DNA from: Alphaproteobacteria bacterium
GTDB taxonomy: Bacteria > Pseudomonadota > Alphaproteobacteria > CAAHEQ01 > UBA3637
Reading direction: 5' to 3'
DNA: 64,000 nucleotides
NCBI GenBank assembly: GCA_045632845.1
Contig: JAZQXL010000020.1
Coordinates: 35,386-99,385, forward strand
Part shown: piece by piece, positions 5,546 through 40,328 of the stretch
Position numbering within the stretch: the first letter of the stretch is position 1
Layout of the letters: every line of letters starts with the position of its first letter
Notes under the pieces: generated by a model
Database searches by the model: none
The model's input: only the letters and a program-made list of their open reading frames with translations
What the model was told of the DNA's origin: nothing
Program-made: the position numbers and the translations under genes

Positions 5546-6322
5546 TTGTTAGGATTGCAAATGACAAATTCAATTTTGTCCCTCTATTGGGTATTTTTTA
5601 TTGATGACAATAACCAGTTGTGGGTTCTTTTTCAAGATGGCAGACTTAGTTTGATGAAACAAGTTCCGCCATTTGCTTCTTTTTCCTCTGATCACACGTT
5701 GATTACAGGGGTTGAAATTGATGGCAAATCAACAGCTATCAAATGGATGTATGCTGACTTTCAAAAAAAAGAATTCCCGCCTATTATCTCCTGTAGTGGA
5801 TATTGCTATTTCCCTGCTCTATTGAATAAAGTACACAGCCGACTAGCTCTCATTCAAGCAGATTTATTAAACCCTGCTGGCACTGGGAAAATGCTTGTCT
5901 ACCAAAAAGCAAGAAAAAAATATCACCTTATTGATACTTTTCAAGCTGCAATGTATCCACCTTTTTATGGAAACTCTGGTTCACTGTATTATATATCTCC
6001 TAAAGGCGATTTGGAGAAAAAAACAATTGATGAAATCAAACTTATTCACCCTCAAGTTTCTCTTTTTGCCCTCAGTGAAACTGAAGAAGATATCGCTGTT
6101 TATTCTGGCGAAACTATTCGTTGGATTTCTCCAAAAACTGGGCAATTTAGGCAATTTATTGCCTTTGATGTGACAGCCATCGGGTTCAACCAATCAGCAG
6201 ACACACTCTTTTTTGCTACGCACAAAAATGGCAGAACTGGGTTATATCAATATAATAAACATAACCAAGAAATTACCCTTATCCTAAACCATCCTGCAAA
6301 AATAACAGCCATTTCATTTTAG
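5546..6322 (+). CDS. Hypothetical protein, possibly with beta-propeller (PD40/TolB-like) repeats; the true start may be at MTNSILS (5561)
   Basis: long ORF; no secure motif. Confidence 0.35.
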   Translation: MLGLQMTNSILSLYWVFFIDDNNQLWVLFQDGRLSLMKQVPPFASFSSDHTLITGVEIDGKSTAIKWMYADFQKKEFPPIISCSGYCYFPALLNKVHSRLALIQADLLNPAGTGKMLVYQKARKKYHLIDTFQAAMYPPFYGNSGSLYYISPKGDLEKKTIDEIKLIHPQVSLFALSETEEDIAVYSGETIRWISPKTGQFRQFIAFDVTAIGFNQSADTLFFATHKNGRTGLYQYNKHNQEITLILNHPAKITAISF

Positions 6323-7795: not shown

Positions 7796-8105
7796 AAAAA
7801 AAAGTGGATTTTCTGTTGCTAGGTAATCCACAAACCCCACCTAAACGCTCATATTGTCTAGGGATTGATCGTTACTTAGATACCTAAAATTAAGCAGCTA
7901 AAGCAACTGGAGCAAAATTATCATTTGCGTTTATATTATCAGCCCGATAACGGTGGTACAATACCGGATACAAGAGAAAGCCTTTATTATGCGTGTCGAT
8001 TCTATTTCACCCCCATAATAAATGGTGGAGGTGTCGGGTACTGCCCCCGAGTCCACAGACATCTATTCTGCTTTTCGTTTAGCATCATAGTCAGTTACCT
8101 GACAA
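7796..8105 (-). ncRNA. ssrA: tmRNA (ssrA), two-piece circularly permuted form. Acceptor piece ~8105..8023 ends in CCTCCACCA. An 8-nt linker follows, then the coding piece from ~8014 with tag ORF 7928..7890 and a terminator at ~7796-7831
   Basis: Minus-strand GCA AAT GAT AAT TTT GCT CCA GTT GCT TTA GCT GCT TAA encodes ANDNFAPVALAA-stop. Acceptor 3' strand CACCTCC-A-CCA pairs with GGGGGTG at the start of the coding piece. Stem TCGGG/CCCGA with a 7-nt loop sits before the 3' acceptor strand. Confidence 0.7.
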
Positions 8106-8109
8106 GTTT

Positions 8110-8138
8110 AGTATACCCTAAAATTAAACCAAGCGCAA
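8110..8138 (-). promoter_or_regulatory. Candidate sigma70 promoter for ssrA (TTGCGC, 17 nt, TATACT)
   Basis: hexamers and spacing read from the sequence; AT-rich background makes chance matches possible. Confidence 0.3.
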
Positions 8139-8141
8139 GCT

Positions 8142-9137
8142 CTATTTCTCACCTTGTTTTGACAAATCTCTTAGATTTTTTTGCATTTTAGCTTTAGATA
8201 AATACAAAACAGCAGTTGTTGCTTTTTTACCACTTTCCAAAAGTTGTTGGGCATACAACATCCTTTCTTTTACATTTGATGGCGAAATGCAAATATATTG
8301 TGGAGAGGTCAACAGATACTTCATTAAATGTCTAGCATCTGCATTTGGGTGTTGTGAAAAATAAAACACACCGTTTTCAAAGTTCTCTTGATACATTGTA
8401 ATATTTTGAATCAATGCATTTGTATCTTTACAAAAAAGTTTTGGATGTGAAAAACAAGCATCTATCCAGTCTTGTTTTTGAACACCAAATTTTTGAATAA
8501 AATCACCCATAACCGCACACTTTTGCTTTAACGTTTCAATATCTTTCACCAATATGTCTGGCATTTTTTTCAAAACAGAAACACTTTCATCAAAAGAAAC
8601 ACCATGCGATTTTGAAAAAGCAATAAAATCCATCAATTTCACATCTAGATTTTCAGGATTTATTTTTAAAACATTTGGATATTTAAAAGCCATTTTAACA
8701 AAATCAGTAATAGATACTTTATATTTTGATAAAACAATCAATCCATCATTGATGTTTTTCTTAATTTTTTTAGGCCCCCAACCCAATACCGCTCTCCCAT
8801 GAGCTGTTGAAGACATTTCGTTTAAAAAAAGCTTAGAATCAGCACCTTTTTCTTGAATAAAAGACAACAAATCATTCAATGATGCAGGTAGATACGAAAA
8901 AACAATCCCATCACTAAGCGTATTGTACATATCTTCTTTTGAAACACCACAATCAGAAAAAATCTTTTCAAACAAAGAAAAACGTTCTTGAATATTCACC
9001 CGCAAAAACGGTAAAGATTCTTCTTTTTCTTTTTGACGGACATTCAAAAGTTTCAAAATCTGTTCCTTTGAAAAACCAACAGTTTTAAAATCTTCAACAA
9101 TCTTATTCAAAATCTTTTTTTTATCTTGATTTTCCAT
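8142..9137 (-). CDS. Paralog 1 of a three-gene tandem family with ~35-aa helical repeats containing a PxLL core (mTERF-like solenoid); unknown function
   Basis: Repeated motifs such as KYPNVLKINPENL, SHPKLFCKDTNALIQ; N-terminus GFSKEQILKLL shared with paralogs 2 and 3. Confidence 0.5.
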   Translation of the reverse strand: MENQDKKKILNKIVEDFKTVGFSKEQILKLLNVRQKEKEESLPFLRVNIQERFSLFEKIFSDCGVSKEDMYNTLSDGIVFSYLPASLNDLLSFIQEKGADSKLFLNEMSSTAHGRAVLGWGPKKIKKNINDGLIVLSKYKVSITDFVKMAFKYPNVLKINPENLDVKLMDFIAFSKSHGVSFDESVSVLKKMPDILVKDIETLKQKCAVMGDFIQKFGVQKQDWIDACFSHPKLFCKDTNALIQNITMYQENFENGVFYFSQHPNADARHLMKYLLTSPQYICISPSNVKERMLYAQQLLESGKKATTAVLYLSKAKMQKNLRDLSKQGEK

Positions 9138-10098
9138 GGGTCATCCTTGATTGAAACAACATTTTTCTTTTTTCAGTCCAAAAACTTTCTGGTGCATTTT
9201 TCAAATCTTCCAAAATAGCTCTTTCTGTTTTATAAAGAGCCATTTTTTGAGCTTTACCCTTTGTTTCTTTAATATATTTGGCATAAAGTCTTTTTAATTT
9301 TAAAGCCTCAAGACTATAAACCAAAACAAATGGTTTTTTGAGCAAATATTCTTGTAAATAAGCTTCATGTTTAACCCCTGCATCATCAACACGAATCAAA
9401 TCATCTTCATACATTTTTTTTAAAAAATTGTACTTTTGCTGCATCAATTTTGGATCAGCATATAACAAAGATGGGAACCTCTCAAAAGAAGTTAGTAAAC
9501 AAGAATTATCCGTCCAAAAAATCTGAGACAATTCATTCACTTTTTTTACAATTGTGTTTGGGTTAGCTGATAAAAGCTCAGGAGCTTTTAATGCCAAACG
9601 AATCCAAATATCTTGAGGAACACCCAATTCTCTTGAACAAGCTTGAATACCACTTTCAATCAAATGTGCACTCTTTTGCAAAATGCTTGGTTTTCGAACA
9701 GCGATACCTTTCCATTCATCCATAGATAAACCTAACACATTCGCCTGTAATTCAATGTTCCTTTTAACCCGCGCAAGAGGAATTGTAAAAATATTCGGTG
9801 TGTTCCAAAAAAGCTTAAAACAGGCACTAGGGTCCATCTCAAAAAAACGACTTACAACCTTTAAATTTCGTTCAATATATTCTGGGGTATATCCAAAAAA
9901 ACGAGGTGTTTTTCTTAACTTTATAATACTTTCTTTTCTTGTTTTTTTGTATGTTGAAAACAAATTTACAAAACCATTAATCCGATCTGTAATTTGTGTT
10001 TGAGCAAAAGGATTTTCAGCGCTGCGTAAATTAATAATCCGCATCGCTTCTTCAGCTGTAAAACCATTTTTTTCAAACTCTTTAATAATTTCTTGCAT
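9121..10098 (-). CDS. Paralog 2 of the PxLL-repeat family; start placed at the ATG overlapping the upstream stop (TAATG), because the track start at 10155 is a TTG
   Basis: Repeats RKTPRFFGYTPEYIERNLKVV / WNTPNIFTIPLARVKRNIELQ / VRKPSILQKSAHLIESGIQ / LKAPELLSANPNTIVKKVNEL / ERFPSLLYADPKLMQQKYNFL. Confidence 0.5.
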   Translation of the reverse strand: MQEIIKEFEKNGFTAEEAMRIINLRSAENPFAQTQITDRINGFVNLFSTYKKTRKESIIKLRKTPRFFGYTPEYIERNLKVVSRFFEMDPSACFKLFWNTPNIFTIPLARVKRNIELQANVLGLSMDEWKGIAVRKPSILQKSAHLIESGIQACSRELGVPQDIWIRLALKAPELLSANPNTIVKKVNELSQIFWTDNSCLLTSFERFPSLLYADPKLMQQKYNFLKKMYEDDLIRVDDAGVKHEAYLQEYLLKKPFVLVYSLEALKLKRLYAKYIKETKGKAQKMALYKTERAILEDLKNAPESFWTEKRKMLFQSRMTHGKSR

Positions 10099-11300
10099 TA
10101 CTTCCCTTTTTGATTTTTTAAATACGCTTGAAAAAGAGCTGGATTTTTCTTCCAAAAATCATCTGGAACATTTTTTAAATCTTCCATAATTTTGCTTGAC
10201 CGTTTCCATATTGGTGCCTTAGATGAAACCCCTTGATTTTCTTTTATCCATAAGCCATAAGCACGCCTTACTTCCAAAGATTGCATGCTGGGAACAAGCA
10301 TTTCTTTTGCATTTTTTAAAATATGATTTTTTAATAAATTTAAATCTTTTTTTGCTTCATTTCCAAGACAAAAAGCATCATCTAAATACATCTGTTTATA
10401 AAAATCATATTTTTGTTTAATCGAGTTAGGCGCACACAAAAATAAAGTAGGCATTTTCAAAAATGAAGTGATAATTGTTTTTGAATCTGTAGAAAATATA
10501 TCTGCAACTTTTGAAACATTAGAATGGATTCTATCAGGCGCTACTTGCAACAACGAGGGAGCAAATAAATACATTTTGCAAATATCTTCTTTTGGCAAAT
10601 TAAAATATTTTGTCCCAGCATCTATTTTTTCAATCAAATTTTGATCTGAATAACTCAACAATGAAGGTGCTTTCAAAAATGATTTTTGAACATCATCTTT
10701 TGACACATCAAAATCTTCTGATATCTTTTGTATGAGATTTAAAACCGTTTCTGGATTTCTGGTTAATATATTTGGAAACTCCTTAAATAATTTTGAAAAA
10801 TCAGTTTCATCTAAATTTAAACCTTTTTTTAAAAGTGTTACGTTTTTCATCACATATTCAGGAGAAAAAGCAAGCAATGTAGGATGCTTCAAACTTTTTT
10901 CTAAAAAAACAGCGGGTTCAACACCAACAATTTCAGCATTTTTAATTAAATTTGAAAAAAGTCCCTCAGGTTTTCTGGTTAACAAATTAGGCTGTTTAAC
11001 AAGAATTGAAACAAGTTTTTCTGGTTCTATTTTCAAAAGTTTTGCATTTTGAAGTAGGTTTTTCCTCAACATTGGTAAAGAGGTTGTTAACAATAAGCGA
11101 GGCTCTTTTACAATCGCTTTTTTTGCCACATTTTTAGAAACTGAAAATTCATCAAAAAACAAAAAAAGATCATCTATCTTCTTTGATATTTCTGTTTTTG
11201 AAAAAGGATTTACCTTTGTCTTCATCCAAAAATCAATAACTTTAGATGCCTCATCCTTTGAAAAACCAGCGTTTAAAAATGTGTCAACAACTTCACTCAT
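10098..11300 (-). CDS. Paralog 3 of the PxLL-repeat family (400 aa); its start overlaps the rlmB stop (ATGA)
   Basis: Repeats VKEPRLLLTTSLPMLRKNLL / VKQPNLLTRKPEGLFSNLIKN / LKHPTLLAFSPEYVMKNVTLL / FKEFPNILTRNPETVLNLIQKI / LKAPSLLSYSDQNLIEKIDAG. Confidence 0.5.
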   Translation of the reverse strand: MSEVVDTFLNAGFSKDEASKVIDFWMKTKVNPFSKTEISKKIDDLFLFFDEFSVSKNVAKKAIVKEPRLLLTTSLPMLRKNLLQNAKLLKIEPEKLVSILVKQPNLLTRKPEGLFSNLIKNAEIVGVEPAVFLEKSLKHPTLLAFSPEYVMKNVTLLKKGLNLDETDFSKLFKEFPNILTRNPETVLNLIQKISEDFDVSKDDVQKSFLKAPSLLSYSDQNLIEKIDAGTKYFNLPKEDICKMYLFAPSLLQVAPDRIHSNVSKVADIFSTDSKTIITSFLKMPTLFLCAPNSIKQKYDFYKQMYLDDAFCLGNEAKKDLNLLKNHILKNAKEMLVPSMQSLEVRRAYGLWIKENQGVSSKAPIWKRSSKIMEDLKNVPDDFWKKNPALFQAYLKNQKGK

Positions 11301-19484: not shown

Positions 19485-19561
19485 GCACTTGTAGCTCAGC
19501 TGGATAGAGTATTGCCCTCCGAAGGCAAGGGTCGTGAGTTCGAATCTCGCCAAGTGCGCCA
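19485..19561 (+). tRNA. tRNA-Arg (anticodon CCG), CCA encoded
   Basis: Acceptor GCACTTG/CAAGTGC, anticodon arm TTGCC-CTCCGAA-GGCAA, T-arm GTGAG-TTCGAAT-CTCGC, discriminator G then CCA. Confidence 0.8.
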
Positions 19562-19968: not shown

Positions 19969-20043
19969 TGGGCTGTCGCCAAGTGGTAAGGCAACGGTTT
20001 TTGATACCGTCATTCGTTGGTTCGAATCCAGCCAGCCCAGCCA
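19969..20043 (+). tRNA. tRNA-Gln (anticodon TTG), CCA encoded
   Basis: Acceptor TGGGCTG/CAGCCCA, anticodon arm ACGGT-TTTTGAT-ACCGT, T-arm GTTGG-TTCGAAT-CCAGC, then G-CCA. Confidence 0.8.
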
Positions 20044-21243: not shown

Positions 21244-21564
21244 CTAATATAAATCAATCCCTTTTCCTAATTCTATGTCAAAAACAGTTTGATTTGTGTT
21301 GAGATCATTTTTTGAGTTAGGCTTTAGGATTTTTATTGACTTAATTTCAAATATCATTTTTTCAGGATTTTTTCTATATGCTTTTTGAAATTCAACATAA
21401 GAATATTTATTGGCTACAGACAATCGCTTAATCCAATAGTCTTTACACTCTCGATATTCATGTGTTTTTACACCGGCTTTAATCTTTTCAAACCAGATAT
21501 CTTTCAAAACTAATTTTAAAGTGTTAGACATTATTAAGAACTTTTCTTGAATAGAGTGTCCCAT
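21244..21564 (-). CDS. Small PUA-like (ASCH-type) domain protein, overlapping the 3' end of the methyltransferase gene
   Basis: LKLVLKDIWFEKIKAGVKTHEYRE resembles the ASCH N-terminal beta-barrel signature (W/F-E-x-I-x-x-G-x-K-T-x-E-x-R); weak. Confidence 0.4.
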   Translation of the reverse strand: MGHSIQEKFLIMSNTLKLVLKDIWFEKIKAGVKTHEYRECKDYWIKRLSVANKYSYVEFQKAYRKNPEKMIFEIKSIKILKPNSKNDLNTNQTVFDIELGKGIDLY

Positions 21565-22751
21565 AATTCTGAAATGTGCTTTGCTACGTTATAAGCCAAT
21601 AGAGGTGGAACCGCATTACCTATAATCTTATATGCAGCAGAAGCACTTAATACATTTGGCTTTACAAACTCATATTCATCAGGAAAAGTCTGTATTCTTG
21701 CGCATTCTCTAACAGTTAATCTTCTTTCAGATAGTCCTTTTTTTAACTCTTTTTCATGCTTTCCACCATGATCTTTTGACAATCTTCTGAATTCGATATT
21801 GCCGTGATGTTCTGCACGAATTGTAGGACCTAATCCTTTTAAATTGATTTCAGTATTTCCTTGACCTTTTTGCATATACTTTGCTTTCGAATATGCTTTT
21901 TGAGCAAAATCATCTGACGATGAAGGTTCCGGCAAATCTCTTAATATTTCTTCTACGGATACCAAAGGAAGTAAGTCTTTATTGTCAAACAAAGTGCTTT
22001 TTTGATAAATATTATGTGTAATCGGTGGATATAAATTTATTTCTTTTTTTTCAATCTTCTCAAGAACTCCTGGATTTAAAGCAGCTTTATTTAACCCTAT
22101 AAAAATAATTCTTTCTCGTTTTTGTGGCACACCATATTCGCCAGCATTTAATACTTTTGCAGGGAATACGTAGTAGCCATCCTTATCAATCGACGAAAAA
22201 TCTGATTCTATAATCTTTTTTGCCTCGCCCAAAGAAACCAATCCTTTTACATTTTCTGCAAAAAATATCTTGGGTTTTACGATTTCTATAACTTCTTTCA
22301 TCCACATATATAAACAACCACGATTTTCGTAAGTAGGTATATCGATATCTTTCTTTCCTAAGTGGTTTTTTTGAGAGTTAAATCCATTACGCTTACCTGC
22401 TAAACTAAAATCTTGACAGGGAAAACCTCCCGTGAGAATATCTATATCATTTGGAAACACTCTTTCGCCAGACTTATGTTGTTTAACCAAATCAACGATA
22501 CTTTCTGTTCTATAAGTTGTTTTTTTATCCTTAAAATATAACTTCCATGCAGTAGCAGCTTCTTTTAGTATGTCATTACTAAAAGTAGTGGTAAAACCCG
22601 TTGGAGCTAATAAAACTCTTTTGCCAGATTTCTTTTTTATCCAGTCAGGATGTATTACGGTGTTTACGCTACTTTCATGTACATAGAAATCACCCTCGAA
22701 ACCAATGTCCATACCGCCGCATCCACTGAATAATGATAATACTTTTTTCAT
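21534..22751 (-). CDS. DNA (cytosine-5)-methyltransferase, Dcm family (type II R-M methylase)
   Basis: Motif I FSGCGGMDIGF, motif IV GGFPCQDFSLAG, motif VI FFAENVKGL, motif VIII QKRERIIFIG, motif X GNAVPPLLA; RBS AAGGGAG. Confidence 0.9.
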   Translation of the reverse strand: MKKVLSLFSGCGGMDIGFEGDFYVHESSVNTVIHPDWIKKKSGKRVLLAPTGFTTTFSNDILKEAATAWKLYFKDKKTTYRTESIVDLVKQHKSGERVFPNDIDILTGGFPCQDFSLAGKRNGFNSQKNHLGKKDIDIPTYENRGCLYMWMKEVIEIVKPKIFFAENVKGLVSLGEAKKIIESDFSSIDKDGYYVFPAKVLNAGEYGVPQKRERIIFIGLNKAALNPGVLEKIEKKEINLYPPITHNIYQKSTLFDNKDLLPLVSVEEILRDLPEPSSSDDFAQKAYSKAKYMQKGQGNTEINLKGLGPTIRAEHHGNIEFRRLSKDHGGKHEKELKKGLSERRLTVRECARIQTFPDEYEFVKPNVLSASAAYKIIGNAVPPLLAYNVAKHISELWDTLFKKSS

Positions 22752-22814
22752 TTTACTCCCTTGCTTTATTTAATTCTTCATGCTATACTTAATAACAACT
22801 TTGGAGAATATAAT

Positions 22815-23918
22815 ATGGCAGATATACGCACAAACCTAAGAGAACTTTCAGTTGCGTTTCCGTTTTGTTCAGATATAACGATAGAACAGATTTCCCCTCA
22901 AGCTTTTAAATCTATATGCGAAAACAATATACAAAATTTTAATTCTAATGTAAACAAAATTTCAAAAAATCCCAAAAAATTTTCTTTAGATGAAATAAGT
23001 ATCATAAAAAAAGGCTTTGATCTAGGTCTTTCCTTAAAGAAGATACTCAAACTAGACACTATAGGAAATACAATCGTATGGCTTGGAAATTCAAAAGATG
23101 ATTTAATAGACTTAAAGATAAATGAACATGCGATTTCATTGAAAGAAAAGTCCAACATCCTACGAAACATAGGATTATATCAATTATTAAACTTTACTAC
23201 AAACACAAATAAATTTGAAAGAGGATTAAATATTTTTAAATATTTTGCTCCAGAAGAATTAAATAATTGGTATCACTATGCAATTTTATCTTTAAAAACA
23301 TTAAAAAATTTTTCATATAAAAGCGAAAAAGGATATACATCAACAGCATTCTTTAAAGAAGATTCCTTATTTTTAAGTTTCAACGAAACAGAAGAAATTG
23401 TTAAAAATTCATCTACATCATCTTATTCGGATTTTGAGAAAATAACCTCTGCGACAATAAGAGAAAAAGTTTTTTCAAAATGGTTAAAACAAATTCCAAC
23501 TAAAAGTGATTACTACAAATTTAAAACCATTTGTGCTCAAAAGGCAGGGAATAATCTTTTAAACTTCGTAAAAACAAATTTAGTGGCAACTTCCCCGTCT
23601 GTTCTGAATTTTTTTAATTTAGAAAGTTTTAGCTATATTTATGCAAAAAATGATGGAAAGCAAATAAAAATATTTAAAGTCCCCTCTCTTAATGAAATAG
23701 ATTTTAATGATTATAAAATAGTAAGAGTTGATGTTGATATCCCCAACTCTCAGCTAAATTTTAAAACAACTATACAAAACATCAAAACAGATTCATGCTG
23801 TGTATTGCGTAATGAGATTCGATATTCGCACGGACAGTTAAATGGCACTCCCGAAGCCAAGTTATACTATGACTCTGGTGATGGACTTGAAAAACTAATC
23901 TATAAAAAATTATCCTAA
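22815..23918 (+). CDS. Candidate restriction endonuclease partner (unknown family), divergently transcribed from the C5-MTase with a 63-bp intergenic gap
   Basis: position and divergent orientation only; extremely AT-rich, N/K-rich protein; RBS GGAGAA; no nuclease motif identified. Confidence 0.35.
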   Translation: MADIRTNLRELSVAFPFCSDITIEQISPQAFKSICENNIQNFNSNVNKISKNPKKFSLDEISIIKKGFDLGLSLKKILKLDTIGNTIVWLGNSKDDLIDLKINEHAISLKEKSNILRNIGLYQLLNFTTNTNKFERGLNIFKYFAPEELNNWYHYAILSLKTLKNFSYKSEKGYTSTAFFKEDSLFLSFNETEEIVKNSSTSSYSDFEKITSATIREKVFSKWLKQIPTKSDYYKFKTICAQKAGNNLLNFVKTNLVATSPSVLNFFNLESFSYIYAKNDGKQIKIFKVPSLNEIDFNDYKIVRVDVDIPNSQLNFKTTIQNIKTDSCCVLRNEIRYSHGQLNGTPEAKLYYDSGDGLEKLIYKKLS

Positions 23919-24140
23919 ATTCTTCTGAGTTAACTTTAGAAACGGTGTATTTTCATTTTTCCTGATTTCTATGTACTCAGGTAAGATTTATGTCTAGCCT
24001 TCTTTTTTTAAAAAGACTTCTTGCTCCACATATACAAAGGTTAAAGTAAGAGCCGAGCCCTAAGGGCAGGAAGTTGTGTTTGGCAAATTTTAACCTTTAC
24101 CTACACACATACAAAAGTTCAATGGATAAAACACTCTTTG

Positions 24141-24208
24141 CGATTAACTGACATTGATGTCACTTAATGAAACACAACTTCGGTTTTGATAAAATCGAGG
24201 TTAATTTT
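24141..24208. repeat. Right copy of the ~70-bp imperfect direct repeat flanking the R-M cassette; contains the perfect inverted repeat TGACA-ttga-TGTCA
   Basis: cgattaactgacattgatgtcacttaat...aacttcggttttgataaaatcgaggttaatt. Confidence 0.5.
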
Positions 24209-24279
24209 CTTAGCCTTTCAAAATAATAATAAAAAAATTTTCTAACAACAGTTCAAAAGGAATAAAAAAATTGTTATCC

Positions 24280-25392
24280 TCATTTTTTTGTTAAAAAATT
24301 AACAATCGGCTTATTAAATAGGTGTATAACAACTATTGAAAACAACAAACCAACCCCTAAAACAAAACCAAGTTCAGCAATCCAATCTAAAACAGGTATT
24401 TGAAAATTAAAATTCAGATTATCAGCATAAATATCTATCAAATAAAACTGGAACAAATAAATTCCCCAAGAATACCGTCCAACAATTTGAACAAACTTGT
24501 TGCACAAAAATTGATTTTGAACCAGCATTTGAGAAACAATCAATAATGAAAATATCAATGCCCAAACCGTATGTTTATTAATCAAAAATAAATTGTATGT
24601 ATCGTAAAAATTAAAACACATTAATTCAAAACAAACAATCAACAAAAAATATGAAATTATTTGTTTCCCTGGCACCTTTGAAAGATTTATCTTTTGAAAT
24701 ATATAATATAAAAAAATACCTAAAATCAAAGTTGGAAAATGTTCTATAAAGCAAAAATCAGAGATATAAGAATTATATACCTTCTCATCTAACGAATCAG
24801 AAAAAGGTTTTAATCGAAACAAAAACTCATTAAGATAATAAACCACAGGACTAGACAAAGCAAACAAAAAAAGCGCCTTAAAAACTGAATTAACATATTT
24901 GAATAAAAAAGGAATTAATAATGTAAATATCGCCAATACACCAACAAACCATTCTACATACAAAATACTGTTACTATAACGGGGAAAAAAACCATGAACA
25001 AAAAATAAATGCGTCAAAAAATTCGAAATCGTTATGTTTGTTTCGCTCCCCAACCATATAGATTGTTTCTCATAAAAAAAACCAACACAAACAGCCACAT
25101 AAAATAATGGAATTAAAAAACAAAATCTATTTTTTATCCATTTTAGACAAGAAACAAAAGAATATTGATTTTTTTTAAAATAAAAACTCAAACTATTATA
25201 GGACAAAAATACCGAAATCAAAAAAAACAAAACAACCCCACACCAACCTGCTCTGACAATTCCTAAAAGCAATTGGGGTAAATCTAATTCAGCACCTGTG
25301 TGTACCATAAGAACAAACAGCATTGCATAGCCTTTTAATGCATCTGCCCATATCAATCTTTTTGAATTAAAAGCCGTTATCTCTTTTTCCAT
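24280..25392 (-). CDS. Membrane acyltransferase, family 3 (OafA/O-acetylase-like)
   Basis: ~10 TM segments; N-terminal ADALKGYAMLFVLMVHTG pattern typical of the acyltransferase_3 family. Confidence 0.55.
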   Translation of the reverse strand: MEKEITAFNSKRLIWADALKGYAMLFVLMVHTGAELDLPQLLLGIVRAGWCGVVLFFLISVFLSYNSLSFYFKKNQYSFVSCLKWIKNRFCFLIPLFYVAVCVGFFYEKQSIWLGSETNITISNFLTHLFFVHGFFPRYSNSILYVEWFVGVLAIFTLLIPFLFKYVNSVFKALFLFALSSPVVYYLNEFLFRLKPFSDSLDEKVYNSYISDFCFIEHFPTLILGIFLYYIFQKINLSKVPGKQIISYFLLIVCFELMCFNFYDTYNLFLINKHTVWALIFSLLIVSQMLVQNQFLCNKFVQIVGRYSWGIYLFQFYLIDIYADNLNFNFQIPVLDWIAELGFVLGVGLLFSIVVIHLFNKPIVNFLTKK

Positions 25393-25606
25393 TTATACCC
25401 CATAAAAAACTTAACATATTGTCTTTTAAAATAAATAGTAATTTATGCATCACATTATGTCAATTAAAACAAAGAAATTTATTTTTTTGTTTTAAACAAT
25501 CTATACATCACTCGATTAACCTAACCAACAAAGAATATTCTCTTAAAGATTTTTCACCATCACTCTCATTCTATTTCCTAGATTTAAACATTTTATTGTA
25601 AAAACA

Positions 25607-25635
25607 TTGACAAAATCTCATTCTTATGATAATAT
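25607..25635 (+). promoter_or_regulatory. Near-consensus sigma70 promoter (TTGACA, 17 nt, TAATAT) 28 nt upstream of the 25663 gene, followed by RBS AAAGGAGAGA
   Basis: read directly from the sequence. Confidence 0.4.
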
Positions 25636-25662
25636 ATAAGAAATCAATTCAAAGGAGAGAAA

Positions 25663-27036
25663 ATGAAGAGTCCAGTTTTATACAATTTGTCTGAAATAAA
25701 AGAGCTTTATGATGCCTTTAAAGAATATGTTAGAACAAAAGGATTTTATGAGGAGTGTATGGACTCTTTAAAAAAATACAACACCTCCTTTTTTAAACTG
25801 ATTGTCAAAAGTAATCAGACAAAAAAACTATTCAAGGTAAGAAAAAACGACTTTTTAGGAAAAAGCACCATCGGTGCAAACAATACCCTATCTAAACCAA
25901 CAATTGAAGATGCTCATTTTTATCGTGCTTGGGTTAAAAACAATCCTACTCAAGATTTAATCCCAACAAAAATCACGTTTAAAAAAAGGTACATCAATCT
26001 ACTTGGAAACACGGATCAATCTTTTGATAATGTCCGCATTTTTATATCCCCAAATGCGCTAATTTTGCCCAAAACAGAAGATAAAAGACCACTTAAAGAA
26101 ATACCAACACAAAATCCTCATGCAATTGAAGAATTGGTCTATTTAGCTGAAGCTTATGATGAATTTATTTTTTCATACAAAGGGTCTAAAAATCAGAAAA
26201 ATTTTGATGAATTTTTTAAAAATAACTTTTTAACCAAAGTTATCCCTCCTTATTTTCGCCAATCCATGGCTGAACCAATTATTAAAATTGTTGAACAAAC
26301 AAGACGCTTGTTAACACAAACATTGTTACAAAATTTTGAACCACAAATAACGGCAAGACAAAATTTATTAAACAATACAGATACTCCTGAAGTTTTTCTA
26401 AAAAACAACAGAAATGAAGTTTTTATCCTCTCAGAACAAGTTGGCGTTATTGATAACGCTCAAAAATTAATCAAACTTCATGATTTAAGAGACGACTTGG
26501 CACATCCAGATACAGAAATGGACATTCTTGTTGATGTTCCTGAAAATGTAAATGAAATTTATGAAACTGTTTTTAACATGATTCGTCGCATCACAACAAC
26601 CAAAAATTTAACAGTTCAAAAAGTAACAAACACAAACGATTCAAATGACCTCACTCCTTTTGTTTTGTGGGCACAAGGCCATAAAGTTAAAGATCACATC
26701 CCAGTTATTGAAAAGAACAAAGACATTGAAACGCCAACATTAATTCACACAATGCAATGTTTGGATATGGCTGTCAAAAGCGCTGCGCCAATTAGTTCAA
26801 ACGGAAAACCTTTAAAAGGGAAAAAACAACGCGACTGGCTTATTAAAGAAGGAATAATGGACCAATCTGATCAACAAGATTATGAAGCAGCAAAACATTT
26901 AAGAAATGCTGTATGCCATGGAAATGCAAATACACAAACACATATGGATATCATTGCGAAAAATGAAACATCACAAAAATTAACTCAAAAAATCATCAAC
27001 AATATGACTCAAAAAGGTCTATTGCAAAAATCATAA
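25663..27036 (+). CDS. Hypothetical 457-aa protein with two HEPN-like Rx4H motifs (LRDDLAH near residue 276, HLRNAVCHGN near residue 415)
   Basis: motif-level only; no other recognisable domain. Confidence 0.35.
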   Translation: MKSPVLYNLSEIKELYDAFKEYVRTKGFYEECMDSLKKYNTSFFKLIVKSNQTKKLFKVRKNDFLGKSTIGANNTLSKPTIEDAHFYRAWVKNNPTQDLIPTKITFKKRYINLLGNTDQSFDNVRIFISPNALILPKTEDKRPLKEIPTQNPHAIEELVYLAEAYDEFIFSYKGSKNQKNFDEFFKNNFLTKVIPPYFRQSMAEPIIKIVEQTRRLLTQTLLQNFEPQITARQNLLNNTDTPEVFLKNNRNEVFILSEQVGVIDNAQKLIKLHDLRDDLAHPDTEMDILVDVPENVNEIYETVFNMIRRITTTKNLTVQKVTNTNDSNDLTPFVLWAQGHKVKDHIPVIEKNKDIETPTLIHTMQCLDMAVKSAAPISSNGKPLKGKKQRDWLIKEGIMDQSDQQDYEAAKHLRNAVCHGNANTQTHMDIIAKNETSQKLTQKIINNMTQKGLLQKS

Positions 27037-27189
27037 CACCTCTTGCACAAAAAAAAATACGCATCATCCTGCCAACAAGCGAGGTAAACTCATGCTCATA
27101 TAAACACAAAAAAAACATTGCGTTTAGTATTCAAAACACTCAATATAACATATAGATTATCATTCATATTCATAATAAATGGGGTAATT

Positions 27190-27780
27190 ATGAAAAAAAT
27201 CTTATTTTCCATTTTATTTTCTTGTGTGTTTTTATGCAACACAACTCAAGCTCAAGTCGTTTCTAACGAAGAAATAAACCCAACCAAACTTGAAAACGCA
27301 AAAAAAATTATTTTGCAATTACAAGCGGAAATGAAAGACTATATCTCAAACGGGTCAGGGCCTTTTTTAGCTGCTGTGATTGATGAAAATAGAAAAATCG
27401 TTTCCAAAACCGCCAACAGTGTTGTATCGGAAGGTTGCAGTAATAATCATGCAGAAATGAATGCCATTAAAATGGCTCAAAAAAACTTAGGAACCTATGA
27501 TTTATCAAAACATAACTTAAGCTTATATGTTACGTCTGAACCTTGCATGATGTGTATTGGGGGCATTATGTGGTCAGGCATCAAATCCGTGTATTATGGT
27601 GTTCCTTCAAAACGAGTTGAAGAAATCACAGGTTTTGATGAAGGATTTAAACCAAATTGGTTTGAAGAATTTAAAAACAGAGGAATTGTCGTTTATGGTA
27701 ACATTGAAATAGAAGAAGGTGAAAAAGTACTGCATAATTATGTAGACACGGGCAAAACAGTGTACCAACCAGAACGATAA
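27190..27780 (+). CDS. CDA-fold zinc deaminase resembling guanine deaminase GuaD / TadA, with an N-terminal Sec-type signal peptide (predicted to be exported)
   Basis: MKKILFSILFSCVFLCNTTQA-QV signal peptide; GPFLAAVID, HAEMNAI and EPCMMCIGG zinc-binding motifs parallel to GuaD (GPFGAVIV / HAEVTAI / EPCPMCLGA). The track start at 27118 is a TTG, so it is rejected. Confidence 0.65.
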   Translation: MKKILFSILFSCVFLCNTTQAQVVSNEEINPTKLENAKKIILQLQAEMKDYISNGSGPFLAAVIDENRKIVSKTANSVVSEGCSNNHAEMNAIKMAQKNLGTYDLSKHNLSLYVTSEPCMMCIGGIMWSGIKSVYYGVPSKRVEEITGFDEGFKPNWFEEFKNRGIVVYGNIEIEEGEKVLHNYVDTGKTVYQPER

Positions 27781-27802
27781 TCAAAAAATTATTCATCAAA
27801 AC

Positions 27803-27832
27803 AAAACGCTCCTTAAAAGGAGCGTTTTTTGA
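27803..27832. terminator. Intrinsic terminator (AAAACGCTCCTT-AAAA-GGAGCGTTTT) between the deaminase and the GNAT gene, bidirectional
   Basis: hairpin plus flanking A/T runs. Confidence 0.5.
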
Positions 27833-27864
27833 TTGATAAAAAATAACAGTAAACAGATTAAATT

Positions 27865-39426: not shown

Positions 39427-39888
39427 TTAATCTTTGTGATATGGGTGCCCATCCAAAATTGTTTTTGCACGATAAATTTGTTCTGCAAGAACAACTCTTG
39501 CCAACATGTGAGGCAATGTCATACGTCCAAAAGAAAGTTTATAATCTGCCTTTTCTCTTAATTTTTCAGCATGTCCATTGGCGCCACCGATTAAGAATGA
39601 AATACTTTGAACGCCTTCATCCAACCACTTACCAATTAACTCAGCAAACTCTCTGGAAGATGGAGTCTTTCCCCTTTCATCAAGGGCAATAATTTTTCCC
39701 CCTTGAGGAATGGATGAAAGTAACAAAGTAGATTCCGCTTCTTTTAACTGTTCAACAGTCAAAGTTTTCTTTTCTTCAAACTCTTTGATTGCAACAGGCC
39801 ATTTTGTTTTTTTCAAATAATCTTGAATGAGCGTATCTTCTGGTGTGTTTTTTTTCAACCGACCAATGGCAGCAATTGTTATTTGCAT
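39427..39888 (-). CDS. rlmH: 23S rRNA (pseudouridine1915-N3)-methyltransferase RlmH (SPOUT)
   Basis: ITIAAIGRLK...SFLIGGANGH...LSFGRMTLPHMLARVVLAEQIYRA...GHPYHK matches the RlmH/YbeA pattern. Confidence 0.8.
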   Translation of the reverse strand: MQITIAAIGRLKKNTPEDTLIQDYLKKTKWPVAIKEFEEKKTLTVEQLKEAESTLLLSSIPQGGKIIALDERGKTPSSREFAELIGKWLDEGVQSISFLIGGANGHAEKLREKADYKLSFGRMTLPHMLARVVLAEQIYRAKTILDGHPYHKD

Positions 39889-40328
39889 GGTTCTGTCCGC
39901 TTTTTATATTTGTTAGGAATCAAATCGGCAATTGGGACAACTTCGTATCCTTTTTTATTATCTGCTGGCATAATAACCTCAGCATCTGGACCATAGTCAG
40001 CAATATATTCACGGCATTTACCACAAGGAGAAATCACATACCCATCTTGATCACGTACCGCAACAATCATTTTAATCTTCATATCTTTTTCAGCCGTTGC
40101 TGCATGACCAATGGTGATAATTTCAGCACAGGTTGCGAGTGATGGTTGATTTGTCCCCAAATGAAGAGCGGCATAAACATTGCCTGATTCCGTCAAAAGA
40201 GCAGCTGACACAACAAAATGATGCCCCTCTTTCATATATCTTTCTTTTAACAACTTTTGTGCAGCTTTGATGAGTGCGTCTGGTGTTACATTTTTTTTAA
40301 CCATTTTATTCTCCTGCAATTGCTTCAA
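39879..40328 (-). CDS. cdd: Cytidine deaminase (homotetrameric CDA type)
   Basis: zinc ligand motifs CAEIITIGHA and SPCGKCREYI; 149 aa. Confidence 0.7.
   Translation of the reverse strand: MKQLQENKMVKKNVTPDALIKAAQKLLKERYMKEGHHFVVSAALLTESGNVYAALHLGTNQPSLATCAEIITIGHAATAEKDMKIKMIVAVRDQDGYVISPCGKCREYIADYGPDAEVIMPADNKKGYEVVPIADLIPNKYKKRTEPCK

What the first reader, a model, noticed from the sequence alone, without database searches (positions are those of the whole stretch)
27190..27780. Exported guanine-deaminase-like CDA-fold enzyme with a Sec signal peptide
The zinc-binding core (GPFLAAVID, HAEMNAI, EPCMMCIGG, GFDEGF) is collinear with small bacterial guanine deaminases (GuaD) and TadA-like enzymes. 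Those are cytoplasmic, whereas this one starts with a textbook signal peptide (MKK, hydrophobic core, TQA-QV). A periplasmic or secreted nucleobase or nucleic-acid deaminase is atypical. Possible roles include a deaminase toxin or effector, modification of an exogenous nucleoside or antibiotic, or purine scavenging outside the cytoplasm. A canonical cytoplasmic cdd is present elsewhere in the window (39879-40328), so the exported enzyme is not simply the housekeeping deaminase.
Basis: partly seen in the sequence, partly recalled or inferred. Interest (0 to 1): 0.65.

Follow-up and report, generated by a model that had tools for sequence, protein, structure and literature searches.

The report
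Exported guanine-deaminase-like enzyme in gut bacteria
A small zinc enzyme that closely resembles a known cytoplasmic guanine deaminase carries a genuine, evolutionarily maintained export signal here and in about a quarter of its gut-bacterial relatives. It therefore probably works in the periplasm, a location not described for this kind of enzyme.

Summary
The ORF at 27190-27780 (+) is real, 196 aa, and strongly conserved, with more than 1,600 homologues (the best 120 are 66-100% identical) in gut and rumen MAGs. Its closest solved relative by sequence and by fold is NE0047, the CDA-fold guanine deaminase of Nitrosomonas europaea. All five NE0047 catalytic and substrate residues are conserved.

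The N-terminus is a canonical Sec/SPase I signal peptide (MKK, a 13-residue hydrophobic core, TQA|QV). It is preceded by a Shine-Dalgarno-like GGGGT, and there is no alternative in-frame ATG.

Comparative DNA shows the signal is not a start-site artefact:
- 22 of 79 classified loci carry it, mostly Gastranaerophilales plus the window's closest relative.
- Its length is almost constant (21-25 residues, 22 in most), and -1 is always Ala.
- Its sequence identity is only 23-45% where the mature domain is 80-87% identical.

The signal is also labile. 48 loci never show it, and several close alphaproteobacterial relatives have lost it and start at an internal ATG.

No immunity gene, delivery domain or conserved operon partner was found, so a toxin role is unlikely.

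Best reading: a periplasmic guanine-to-xanthine deaminase used for purine or nitrogen scavenging. This is a new variant of a known kind and of moderate interest. Substrate and localisation remain untested biochemically.

The parts
27181..27185 (+). Shine-Dalgarno-like GGGGT, 5 nt upstream of the ATG
   Evidence: The sister locus L001 has GGGGG at the same spacing. SP-bearing homologues have AGGAG-like sites 5-9 nt before the signal-peptide ATG.
27190..27252 (+). Predicted Sec/SPase I signal peptide, residues 1-21 (MKKILFSILFSCVFLCNTTQA), with predicted cleavage at TQA|QV
   Evidence: Rule-based test. Homologous signal peptides occur in 22 loci; most are 22 residues long, with -1 = Ala in all and -3 = A/V/S/T in 21 of 22. 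AF2 gives low confidence with an isolated helix at residues 3-14. There is no lipobox and no twin-arginine motif.
27253..27777 (+). Mature CDA-fold deaminase domain, residues 22-196, NE0047-type guanine-deaminase-like
   Evidence: phmmer against PDB: 2g84/4hrq NE0047, E 1.2e-21. Foldseek against PDB: top 12 hits are all NE0047, E 4e-14, TM 0.68-0.77. The AF2 model has pLDDT 86.7.
27448..27456 (+). H87-A88-E89: zinc ligand His and the proton-shuttle Glu (equivalent to NE0047 E79)
   Evidence: Alignment to NE0047. Invariant in 29 homologues. Roles taken from PMC9081823.
27541..27555 (+). P118-C119-M-M-C122: the PCxxC zinc-ligand motif
   Evidence: P118, C119 and C122 are invariant.
27631..27645 (+). 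G-F149-D-E151-G: second catalytic Glu (NE0047 E143) and the stacking Phe (NE0047 F141). The remaining substrate residues are N76 (NE0047 N66, nt 27415-27417) and F59 (NE0047 F48, nt 27364-27366).
27803..27828 (.). GC-rich hairpin flanked by A- and T-runs, lying between the deaminase and the convergent GNAT gene; a likely bidirectional intrinsic terminator. The gene therefore looks monocistronic.
   Evidence: and the sequence.

Best explanation
The gene encodes a Sec-exported, NE0047-type, zinc-dependent guanine deaminase.

Proposed mechanism. Translation starts at ATG 27190. The 21-residue signal peptide targets the unfolded chain through SecYEG, and signal peptidase I cuts after T-Q-A. The 175-residue mature domain then folds and binds zinc in the periplasm. 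The host is a diderm alphaproteobacterium: the window encodes Mla, an RND pump and a permuted tmRNA. In the periplasm the enzyme hydrolytically deaminates guanine to xanthine plus ammonia, using His87/Cys119/Cys122-bound zinc, Glu89 and Glu151 as proton shuttles, and Asn76/Phe59/Phe149 to hold the base. The likely purpose is scavenging in the gut: turning guanine released from nucleic acids into xanthine and/or ammonia that the cell can take up.

Shown here: the ORF, the fold, the residue conservation, the anatomy of the signal peptide, and its conservation and lability across homologues.

Inferred, not shown: actual export and cleavage, guanine as the substrate, and the physiological role.
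For: Enzyme identity:
- The best solved relative is NE0047 by sequence (E 1.2e-21) and by fold (Foldseek E 4e-14, TM 0.68-0.77).
- The five residues shown experimentally to matter in NE0047 (F48, N66, E79, F141, E143; PMC9081823) align to F59, N76, E89, F149 and E151. Four are invariant and F149 is nearly invariant (at least 90%) in 29 homologues.
- The TadA model scores 43.6 bits against a cut-off of 150.

Export signal:
- The n/h/c regions and the -3/-1 rule are satisfied. Only 0.5% of ATG-started frames in the window pass the same test.
- An SD-like site directly precedes this ATG, and there is no other in-frame ATG.
- 22 of 79 classified loci carry a homologous signal. Most are 22 residues long, -1 is always Ala, and an AGGAG-like SD lies 5-9 nt upstream.
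- Signal sequences are 23-45% identical where mature domains are 80-87% identical. The frame stays open and the length is kept, which is typical of a functional signal peptide.
- Further exported versions exist in other branches: P0128, P0131, P0135 and P0137.
- More distant NE0047-like proteins (35-45% identity) have no signal.

Diderm host: MlaE, AcrB-type RND pump and HlyD; permuted tmRNA.

Not a toxin: no conserved neighbour in 80 loci. There is only a local PADLOC hit to the zinc motif. The family is tightly conserved, with the best 120 hits 66-100% identical.
Against: - No signal-peptide predictor such as SignalP could be run, and export was not tested.
- 48 of 79 loci lack the signal. 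Several close relatives have lost it and evidently still keep the enzyme under strong constraint, so the enzyme works in the cytoplasm too and periplasmic location is not essential to the family.
- Identity to NE0047 is only about 30-33%, so the substrate could differ.
- No purine transporter or salvage gene is linked in the window or in the 80 loci, so the scavenging role is conjecture.
- The SD here (GGGGT) is weaker than in most homologues.
- Cys-ligated zinc sites in an oxidising periplasm are uncommon. From my own knowledge, B1 metallo-beta-lactamases are a precedent.
Confidence: 0.55

Rival explanations
1. The protein is exported but has a different substrate. It would deaminate another amino-heterocycle met outside the cell, for example a toxic guanine analogue such as 8-azaguanine, ammeline or other s-triazines, isoguanine, or a pterin. 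Its role would then be detoxification or xenobiotic processing before entry into the cytoplasm.
For: Identity to NE0047 is only about 30-33%. From my own knowledge, CDA-fold relatives with similar cores act on isoguanine/5-azacytosine (Msd) or guanosine (plant GSDA); both appear among the PDB hits and in PMC9081823. Extracytoplasmic placement would make sense for a protective enzyme. The gene lies in a lower-GC, island-like stretch next to a restriction-modification system.
Against: All five NE0047 guanine-site residues are conserved, and NE0047 is reported to be very strict for the guanine scaffold. The island context is shared only with L001.
Confidence: 0.18
2. The signal is a start-site artefact. 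The true start would lie downstream, the hydrophobic stretch would be translated 5' leader, and the enzyme would be an ordinary cytoplasmic guanine deaminase.
For: Most homologues (48 of 79 loci) have no signal. In close relatives (L002-L006, L008, L010) an internal ATG with its own AGGAGG or GGGAG SD is the probable start, and the upstream 'signal' is interrupted by a stop, a frameshift or a missing ATG. An in-frame GTG exists at codon 13 of the window gene.
Against: The window gene has no internal in-frame ATG and no SD before the GTG, whereas GGGGT sits 5 nt before ATG 27190. L001 keeps the same arrangement. Twenty other loci keep an open frame of nearly constant length with signal-peptide character despite 55-77% amino-acid replacement. 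Untranslated sequence would not be expected to preserve this.
Confidence: 0.08
3. The protein is a secreted toxin or effector: a deaminase released to mutate or deplete nucleic acids or nucleotides in competitor or host cells.
For: The Pfam MafB19-deam model scores above threshold (58 bits) and there are weak SNAD4/APOBEC hits. Sec-delivered toxin deaminases, sometimes without an adjacent immunity gene, are described in PMC3239186. The neighbourhood contains a possible HEPN protein and a restriction-modification system.
Against: A cytoplasmic NE0047-like control (P0150) also passes the MafB19-deam threshold, so that hit does not discriminate. There is no N-terminal delivery or filamentous domain and no conserved neighbouring gene in 80 loci. 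Conservation across phyla is extreme rather than polymorphic. Signal-less forms are tolerated in the producer's cytoplasm, which argues against toxicity. The guanine-base pocket residues are retained.
Confidence: 0.06
4. The N-terminal segment is an uncleaved signal anchor. It would tether the deaminase to the outer face of the inner membrane rather than release it into the periplasm.
For: The hydrophobic core is 13 residues, with positive charges only on the N-terminal side. Many homologues have Lys at +1 (AxA|KV), which from my own knowledge can slow cleavage in E. coli.
Against: A 13-residue core is short for a membrane span. The -3/-1 small-residue pattern is conserved in 22 of 22 signals, which implies selection for cleavage.
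Confidence: 0.1

Closest known systems
NE0047 of Nitrosomonas europaea (CDA-fold 'group 4' guanine deaminase; PDB 2g84, 4hrq)
   Same: Both have the same fold and about the same mature length. Both carry HAE and PCxxC zinc motifs, a second catalytic Glu in GFDEG, the Asn and two Phe of the guanine pocket, and a conserved C-terminal Tyr...Arg tail.
   Different: Identity is about 30-33%. NE0047 and its 35-45% relatives have no signal peptide, whereas this protein and about a quarter of its subfamily have one. The N-terminal segment that augments the NE0047 dimer is replaced here by a conserved V-I-S-N-E-x-I motif followed by a long helix. Activity has not been tested.
Bacillus subtilis GuaD/YknA (domain-swapped CDA-fold guanine deaminase; PDB 1wkq, 1tiy)
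   Same: Both have the CDA fold and a presumed guanine substrate (E 9e-14).
   Different: The match is weaker and shorter (Foldseek TM 0.50-0.51 for the query, 118-123 aligned columns). The domain-swapped C-terminus of GuaD is not evident here. GuaD is cytoplasmic.
Sec-delivered deaminase toxins of polymorphic toxin systems (MafB19-like, Bd3614-like and others; Iyer et al. 2011, PMC3239186)
   Same: Both combine a deaminase-superfamily domain with an N-terminal signal peptide, and Pfam MafB19-deam is hit above threshold.
   Different: This protein has no pre-toxin or filamentous region and no immunity gene. It is not polymorphic, it retains a nucleobase pocket, and signal-less forms exist in the same family.
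TadA (tRNA adenosine-34 deaminase), the name some pipelines give these proteins
   Same: Both have the helix-4 CDA fold with HAE/PCxxC motifs. JGI labels several homologues TadA.
   Different: The NCBIfam TadA model scores 43.6 bits against a cut-off of 150. The GFDEG motif and the C-terminal extension are guanine-deaminase features. An exported enzyme could not reach tRNA.

Membership tests
Cytidine/deoxycytidylate deaminase superfamily (Pfam PF00383) | H-A-E and P-C-x-x-C zinc-binding motifs on the CDA fold | tested here: met
   PF00383 scores 61.1 bits against a cut-off of 25. H87/E89/C119/C122 are invariant. The AF2 model matches CDA-fold structures.
NE0047-type CDA-fold guanine deaminase | NE0047 is the closest solved relative by sequence and by structure | tested here: met
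   phmmer E 1.2e-21. The top 12 Foldseek hits are all NE0047 chains, E 4e-14 to 1e-12.
NE0047-type CDA-fold guanine deaminase | Two proton-shuttle glutamates (E79 in HAE, E143 in GFDEG) | tested here: met
   E89 and E151 align to them and are invariant. Their roles are from PMC9081823.
NE0047-type CDA-fold guanine deaminase | Asn66 stabilising O6, and Phe48/Phe141 padding the pocket | tested here: met
   N76 and F59 are invariant, and F149 is present in at least 90% of sequences.
NE0047-type CDA-fold guanine deaminase | C-terminal loop that closes over the base and excludes nucleosides | tested here: inconclusive
   The C-terminal Y192, P194 and R196 are invariant, and a similar Y-N-x-R tail is seen in NE0047-like proteins. 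However, the last 10 residues of the model have pLDDT of only about 58.
NE0047-type CDA-fold guanine deaminase | Catalyses guanine to xanthine plus NH3 | not testable with these tools
   This needs an enzyme assay.
Sec-type (SPase I) signal peptide | Positive n-region, 7-15 residue uncharged hydrophobic h-region, and a c-region with small residues at -3 and -1 | tested here: met
   The sequence is MKK / ILFSILFSCVFLC / NTTQA|Q. The same layout is found in 22 loci.
Sec-type (SPase I) signal peptide | Physico-chemical character is conserved while the sequence diverges faster than the mature protein | tested here: met
   Signals are 23-45% identical against 80-87% for the mature domain, with length kept at 22 residues in most loci.
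Sec-type (SPase I) signal peptide | Accepted by a trained predictor (SignalP/Phobius) and cleaved in vivo | not testable with these tools
   No predictor is available here. Experiment is needed.
Lipoprotein (SPase II) or Tat signal | Lipobox L-[AS]-[GA]-C, or a twin-arginine S/T-R-R-x-F-L-K motif | tested here: not met
   The sequence before C16 is V-F-L, which is not a lipobox. Most homologous signals have no Cys at that place, and no RR is present.
Polymorphic-toxin / effector deaminases | N-terminal trafficking or pre-toxin domains and an adjacent immunity gene | tested here: not met
   The protein is a single domain after the signal. No gene family recurs next to it in the 22 SP-bearing loci. 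The best recurrent neighbour overall is a PQ-loop protein in 13 of 80 loci.
Polymorphic-toxin / effector deaminases | Specific match to a toxin deaminase clade model | tested here: inconclusive
   MafB19-deam scores 58 bits against a cut-off of 27, but the cytoplasmic NE0047-like control P0150 also passes at 30.9 bits. Bd3614-deam scores below its cut-off (24.6 against 38.5).
TadA | Score above the NCBIfam equivalog cut-off | tested here: not met
   43.6 bits against a cut-off of 150.

The most novel reading that the evidence does not exclude
The family may be a localisation-switching enzyme, in which the same deaminase is placed in the periplasm or the cytoplasm according to which start codon is used.

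- In the window's clade many genes keep both an upstream SD-ATG-AAAAAAA start that makes the signal peptide and an internal SD+ATG embedded in the hydrophobic core (L-G-[CG]-L-F-M, DNA ...AGGAGGTTTGTTTATG).
- One locus (L002) differs from its signal-bearing relatives by a single base in the poly-A tract right after the first ATG.
- Alternative initiation, or slippage in that homopolymer, could therefore give dual or phase-variable localisation.
- Together with horizontal spread between Gastranaerophilales and gut Alphaproteobacteria, this would define an extracytoplasmic step of purine catabolism that is tuned by niche.
Probability: 0.12. Interest if true: 0.65.

Novelty: new variant of a known kind. 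Interest (0 to 1): 0.45.

Why it matters
As far as I know, nucleobase deaminases of purine salvage and catabolism are described as cytoplasmic. Full-text searches found no report of a periplasmic, extracellular or secreted guanine deaminase.

A conserved exported form shared by Gastranaerophilales and gut Alphaproteobacteria would mean that some gut diderms convert guanine to xanthine and ammonia before uptake. That bears on purine cross-feeding and on the intestinal purine and urate pool.

The repeated loss of the signal offers a natural experiment on what periplasmic placement buys the cell.

There is also an annotation point. These proteins are variously auto-labelled 'TadA' or 'nucleoside deaminase', and neither label captures the likely function or location.

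Tried and rejected
- **Immunity or operon partner.** I clustered all ORFs of at least 70 aa from 80 homologous loci plus the window. Nothing recurs beside the SP-bearing genes. The only repeated neighbour is a PQ-loop/SemiSWEET gene in 13 of 80 loci. Those are mainly signal-less or remnant alphaproteobacterial forms, and the gene is absent from the window.
- **Defence system.** PADLOC gives only a local hit to the zinc motif of a dCTP deaminase model.
- **Plasmid-borne or mobile origin.** No plasmid hit exceeds 38% identity.
- **Linked purine genes.** About 40 window ORFs were scanned and none is a purine transporter or salvage gene.
- **Exact-sequence look-up of the window protein's contig.** Nothing was on record.
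- **TadA and B. subtilis GuaD-type membership.** Both were rejected on score and coverage.
- **Composition artefact.** I considered whether the hydrophobic N-terminus is what AT-rich DNA gives by chance. This was rejected by the control over all ATG-started frames in the window (11 of 2,313 pass).
- **C-terminal extensions of P0128 and P0131.** No Pfam domain was found.
- **Literature.** Searches on Gastranaerophilales purine metabolism and on exported guanine deaminases gave nothing relevant.

Full report
**Observation.**
The ORF on the + strand runs from ATG 27190 to TAA 27778-27780 and encodes 196 residues. Pfam places residues 39-137 in the cytidine/deoxycytidylate deaminase zinc-binding family (61 bits, E 1e-16). 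Comparison with the sister locus L001 shows 35 synonymous against 11 non-synonymous codon differences in the mature part. More than 1,600 database proteins match at E <= 1e-3, and the best 120 are 66-100% identical. The gene is real and constrained.

**Enzyme identity.**
- Against all PDB sequences the best hits are the eight entries of NE0047 from Nitrosomonas europaea (E 1.2e-21). B. subtilis guanine deaminase follows at 9e-14, then plant guanosine deaminase, and TadA proteins only at 1e-9 or weaker.
- An AlphaFold2 model built from 29 homologues has mean pLDDT 86.7. The low-confidence parts are the first 20 residues, residues 80-83 and the last 10.
- Foldseek against the PDB returns NE0047 chains as the top 12 hits (E 4e-14 to 1e-12, TM 0.68-0.77).
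- NE0047 is an experimentally characterised CDA-fold guanine deaminase. Its mechanism needs E79 and E143 as proton shuttles, N66 to stabilise O6, and F48/F141 to pad the pocket (PMC9081823).
- Using the residue-by-residue alignment (the chain index is offset by 2 from the published numbering), these map to E89, E151, N76, F59 and F149. Four are invariant and F149 is nearly invariant in 29 homologues spanning 64-86% identity.
- The NCBIfam TadA model scores far below its cut-off (43.6 against 150).
- The MafB19-deam Pfam hit does not indicate a toxin, because a cytoplasmic NE0047-like control protein also passes that threshold.
- I therefore file the core as NE0047-type and guanine-deaminase-like. 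Activity is untested.

**The signal peptide in the window.**
- Residues 1-21 are MKK / ILFSILFSCVFLC / NTTQA, followed by QVVSNEE. This gives a positive n-region, a 13-residue uncharged core, small residues at -3 and -1, and an acidic early mature region.
- There is no lipobox and no twin arginine.
- No trained predictor was available, so I wrote a simple rule test. It passes 6 of 57 long ORFs in the window. The others include an obvious lipoprotein and membrane or exported proteins. It passes only 11 of 2,313 ATG-started frames on both strands. AT-rich composition does not explain the pattern.
- GGGGT lies 5 nt upstream of the ATG (GGGGG in L001). There is no other in-frame ATG before the conserved domain, and only a GTG at codon 13 with no ribosome-binding site.

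**The signal peptide across homologues.**
A scan of one genome per species returned 318 loci. I took the best 80 with 6 kb flanks and examined the DNA upstream of the conserved V-I-[SA]-N-E motif. Of 79 classified loci (the window plus 78 of the 80; two gave no anchor motif), the counts are:
- **22 with a canonical signal.** The ATG sits 5-9 nt after an AGGAG-like site. Alanine is at -1 in all, and A/V/S/T is at -3 in 21.
- **48 with none.** These have a stop codon, or an SD+ATG only 1-10 codons before the motif.
- **9 with degenerate extensions.**

On a neighbour-joining tree of the mature domain the states are phylogenetically coherent:
- A large clade from rumen and gut Alphaproteobacteria has no signal.
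- A clade dominated by Gastranaerophilales (Melainabacteria) almost always has one.
- The window's own alphaproteobacterial clade is mixed.

Within the signal-bearing set, most signals are 22 residues long and are 23-45% identical where mature domains are 80-87% identical. That is the expected behaviour of a functional signal peptide and not of untranslated leader.

Exported versions also occur in more distant branches:
- P0128 and P0131: signal, deaminase and a C-terminal extension.
- P0137.
- P0135: signal plus a catalytically dead domain.

NE0047-like proteins at 35-45% identity have no signal. By the same rule, 28 of the 117 top database proteins of at least 170 aa carry a signal.

**Lability of the signal.**
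In the window's clade the c-region remnant (...F-M-[ST]-N-N-L-N-A-Q-V) persists in genes whose signal is broken:
- L004 has a stop codon inside it.
- L005 and L010 lack the upstream ATG.
- L002 is out of frame by one base in the poly-A run that follows the ATG.

In these genes an SD (AGGAGG, GGGAG or GGGAT) lies 7-9 nt before the internal ATG, that is, inside the former hydrophobic core. L081, an intact member, has both starts. It also follows that the enzyme functions in either compartment, and that periplasmic placement is an adaptive option rather than a necessity.

**Context.**
- The gene looks monocistronic, with a strong hairpin terminator at 27803-27828 shared with the convergent GNAT acetyltransferase gene.
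- It lies in a slightly lower-GC stretch (22-34 kb; 0.28-0.32 against 0.32-0.38 elsewhere, with slight overlap) downstream of two tRNA genes. This stretch also holds a C5-methylase and type II restriction enzyme pair, a 457-aa protein with two Rx4H motifs, and proteins of 1,224 and 262 aa with no family match.
- This neighbourhood is shared only with L001.
- Across 80 loci no gene family accompanies the deaminase consistently. There is no immunity-like partner, no transporter and no purine gene.
- The host is a diderm alphaproteobacterium from an animal gut. Evidence: a permuted tmRNA; MlaE, an AcrB-type pump and HlyD; and the closest loci being alphaproteobacterial gut MAGs. A cleaved Sec substrate would therefore reside in the periplasm unless secreted further.

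**Mechanism and rivals.**
The best-supported reading is a periplasmic guanine deaminase producing xanthine and ammonia outside the cytoplasm, plausibly for purine or nitrogen scavenging in a nucleic-acid-rich gut.
- I put about 0.8 on 'exported CDA-fold enzyme'.
- I put about 0.55 on guanine as the substrate.
- I put less on the physiological purpose, which has no direct evidence.

The main rival keeps export but changes the substrate to a guanine analogue or xenobiotic. The start-site artefact, toxin and uncleaved-anchor readings are each at or below about 0.1, for the reasons given in their entries.

**Novelty.**
Sec-delivered deaminase toxins are known (PMC3239186). However, I found no description of an exported metabolic guanine deaminase in four full-text searches. 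The enzyme core is a known kind, and the new elements are the export signal, its phylogenetic pattern and its repeated loss. I rate this a new variant of a known kind with moderate interest (0.45). It would be surprising to a purine-metabolism specialist and is easily testable, but it does not open a long-standing question.

Noticed in passing
window 21534-22751 (-) and 22761-23918 (+): A divergent pair of a C5 cytosine DNA methylase (Pfam E 1e-58) and a type II restriction endonuclease (PADLOC REase_II E 1e-50). This looks like a restriction-modification system at the edge of the lower-GC stretch.
   Followed up: partly
window 25663-27036 (+): A 457-aa protein directly upstream of the deaminase has no Pfam family. 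It carries two Rx4H motifs (LRDDLAHPD, LRNAVCHGN) and a weak PADLOC CARF_HEPN hit (E 1.7e-4), so it may be a HEPN-type nuclease. It is syntenic only in L001.
   Followed up: partly
window 28515-32189 (-) and 32186-32974 (-): Overlapping genes for a 1,224-aa and a 262-aa protein have no hit in Pfam or PADLOC. The 1,224-aa protein is absent from the sister locus L001. Their function is unknown.
   Followed up: no
window 22000-34000: GC content is 0.28-0.32 against 0.32-0.38 in the rest of the window, just downstream of tRNA-Arg (19485-19561) and tRNA-Gln (19969-20043). The stretch looks like a variable island, and it contains the deaminase.
   Followed up: partly
window 8142-9137 (-) and 10098-11300 (-): Two proteins match the Pfam mTERF family (E 1.5e-9 and 7.9e-17). 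This family is best known from mitochondrial and plastid transcription termination factors and is unusual in a bacterium.
   Followed up: no
window 7799-8116 (-): A permuted (two-piece) tmRNA with tag peptide ANDNFAPVALAA, consistent with an alphaproteobacterial host.
   Followed up: no
window 33582-37094: An NAD salvage cluster: an NtrR-like ADP-ribose-responsive repressor, a nicotinamidase-like protein, a nicotinamide-nucleotide adenylyltransferase and a nicotinate phosphoribosyltransferase.
   Followed up: no
window 39879-40328 (-): The second CDA-fold gene is cytidine-deaminase-like (NCBIfam PRK06848, E 7.7e-30) but scores below every curated cut-off. It starts at TTG and overlaps the RlmH-like SPOUT methyltransferase gene by 10 nt.
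   Followed up: partly
L002 5500-5799, L003 6629-6889, L008 4315-4575, L015 6530-6847, L041 5664-5924, L065 6530-6799 and others: An 86-105 aa PQ-loop/SemiSWEET-like membrane protein (Pfam PQ-loop E 1e-10) lies next to the deaminase in 13 of 80 loci. It is found on either side, usually on the opposite strand, and mostly in alphaproteobacterial loci without an intact signal. None is present in the window. It may be a transporter link or just retained synteny.
   Followed up: partly
L002 around 5975-6030 (upstream of the deaminase); compare L081 5001-5050: L002 has ATG followed by A6 where signal-bearing relatives have A7 or A8. This puts the signal peptide out of frame while an internal SD+ATG remains. 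It could be an assembly error or a slippage-prone switch.
   Followed up: partly
proteins P0135, P0195, P0223 (from the representative search): P0135 has an intact signal peptide but a catalytically dead domain (YAE for HAE, PNTTG for PCxxC, IDNG for FDEG). P0195 and P0223 are lipoprotein-signal plus alpha/beta-hydrolase proteins with a C-terminal deaminase-like domain that reads HAA instead of HAE. All three look like exported pseudo-deaminases.
   Followed up: partly
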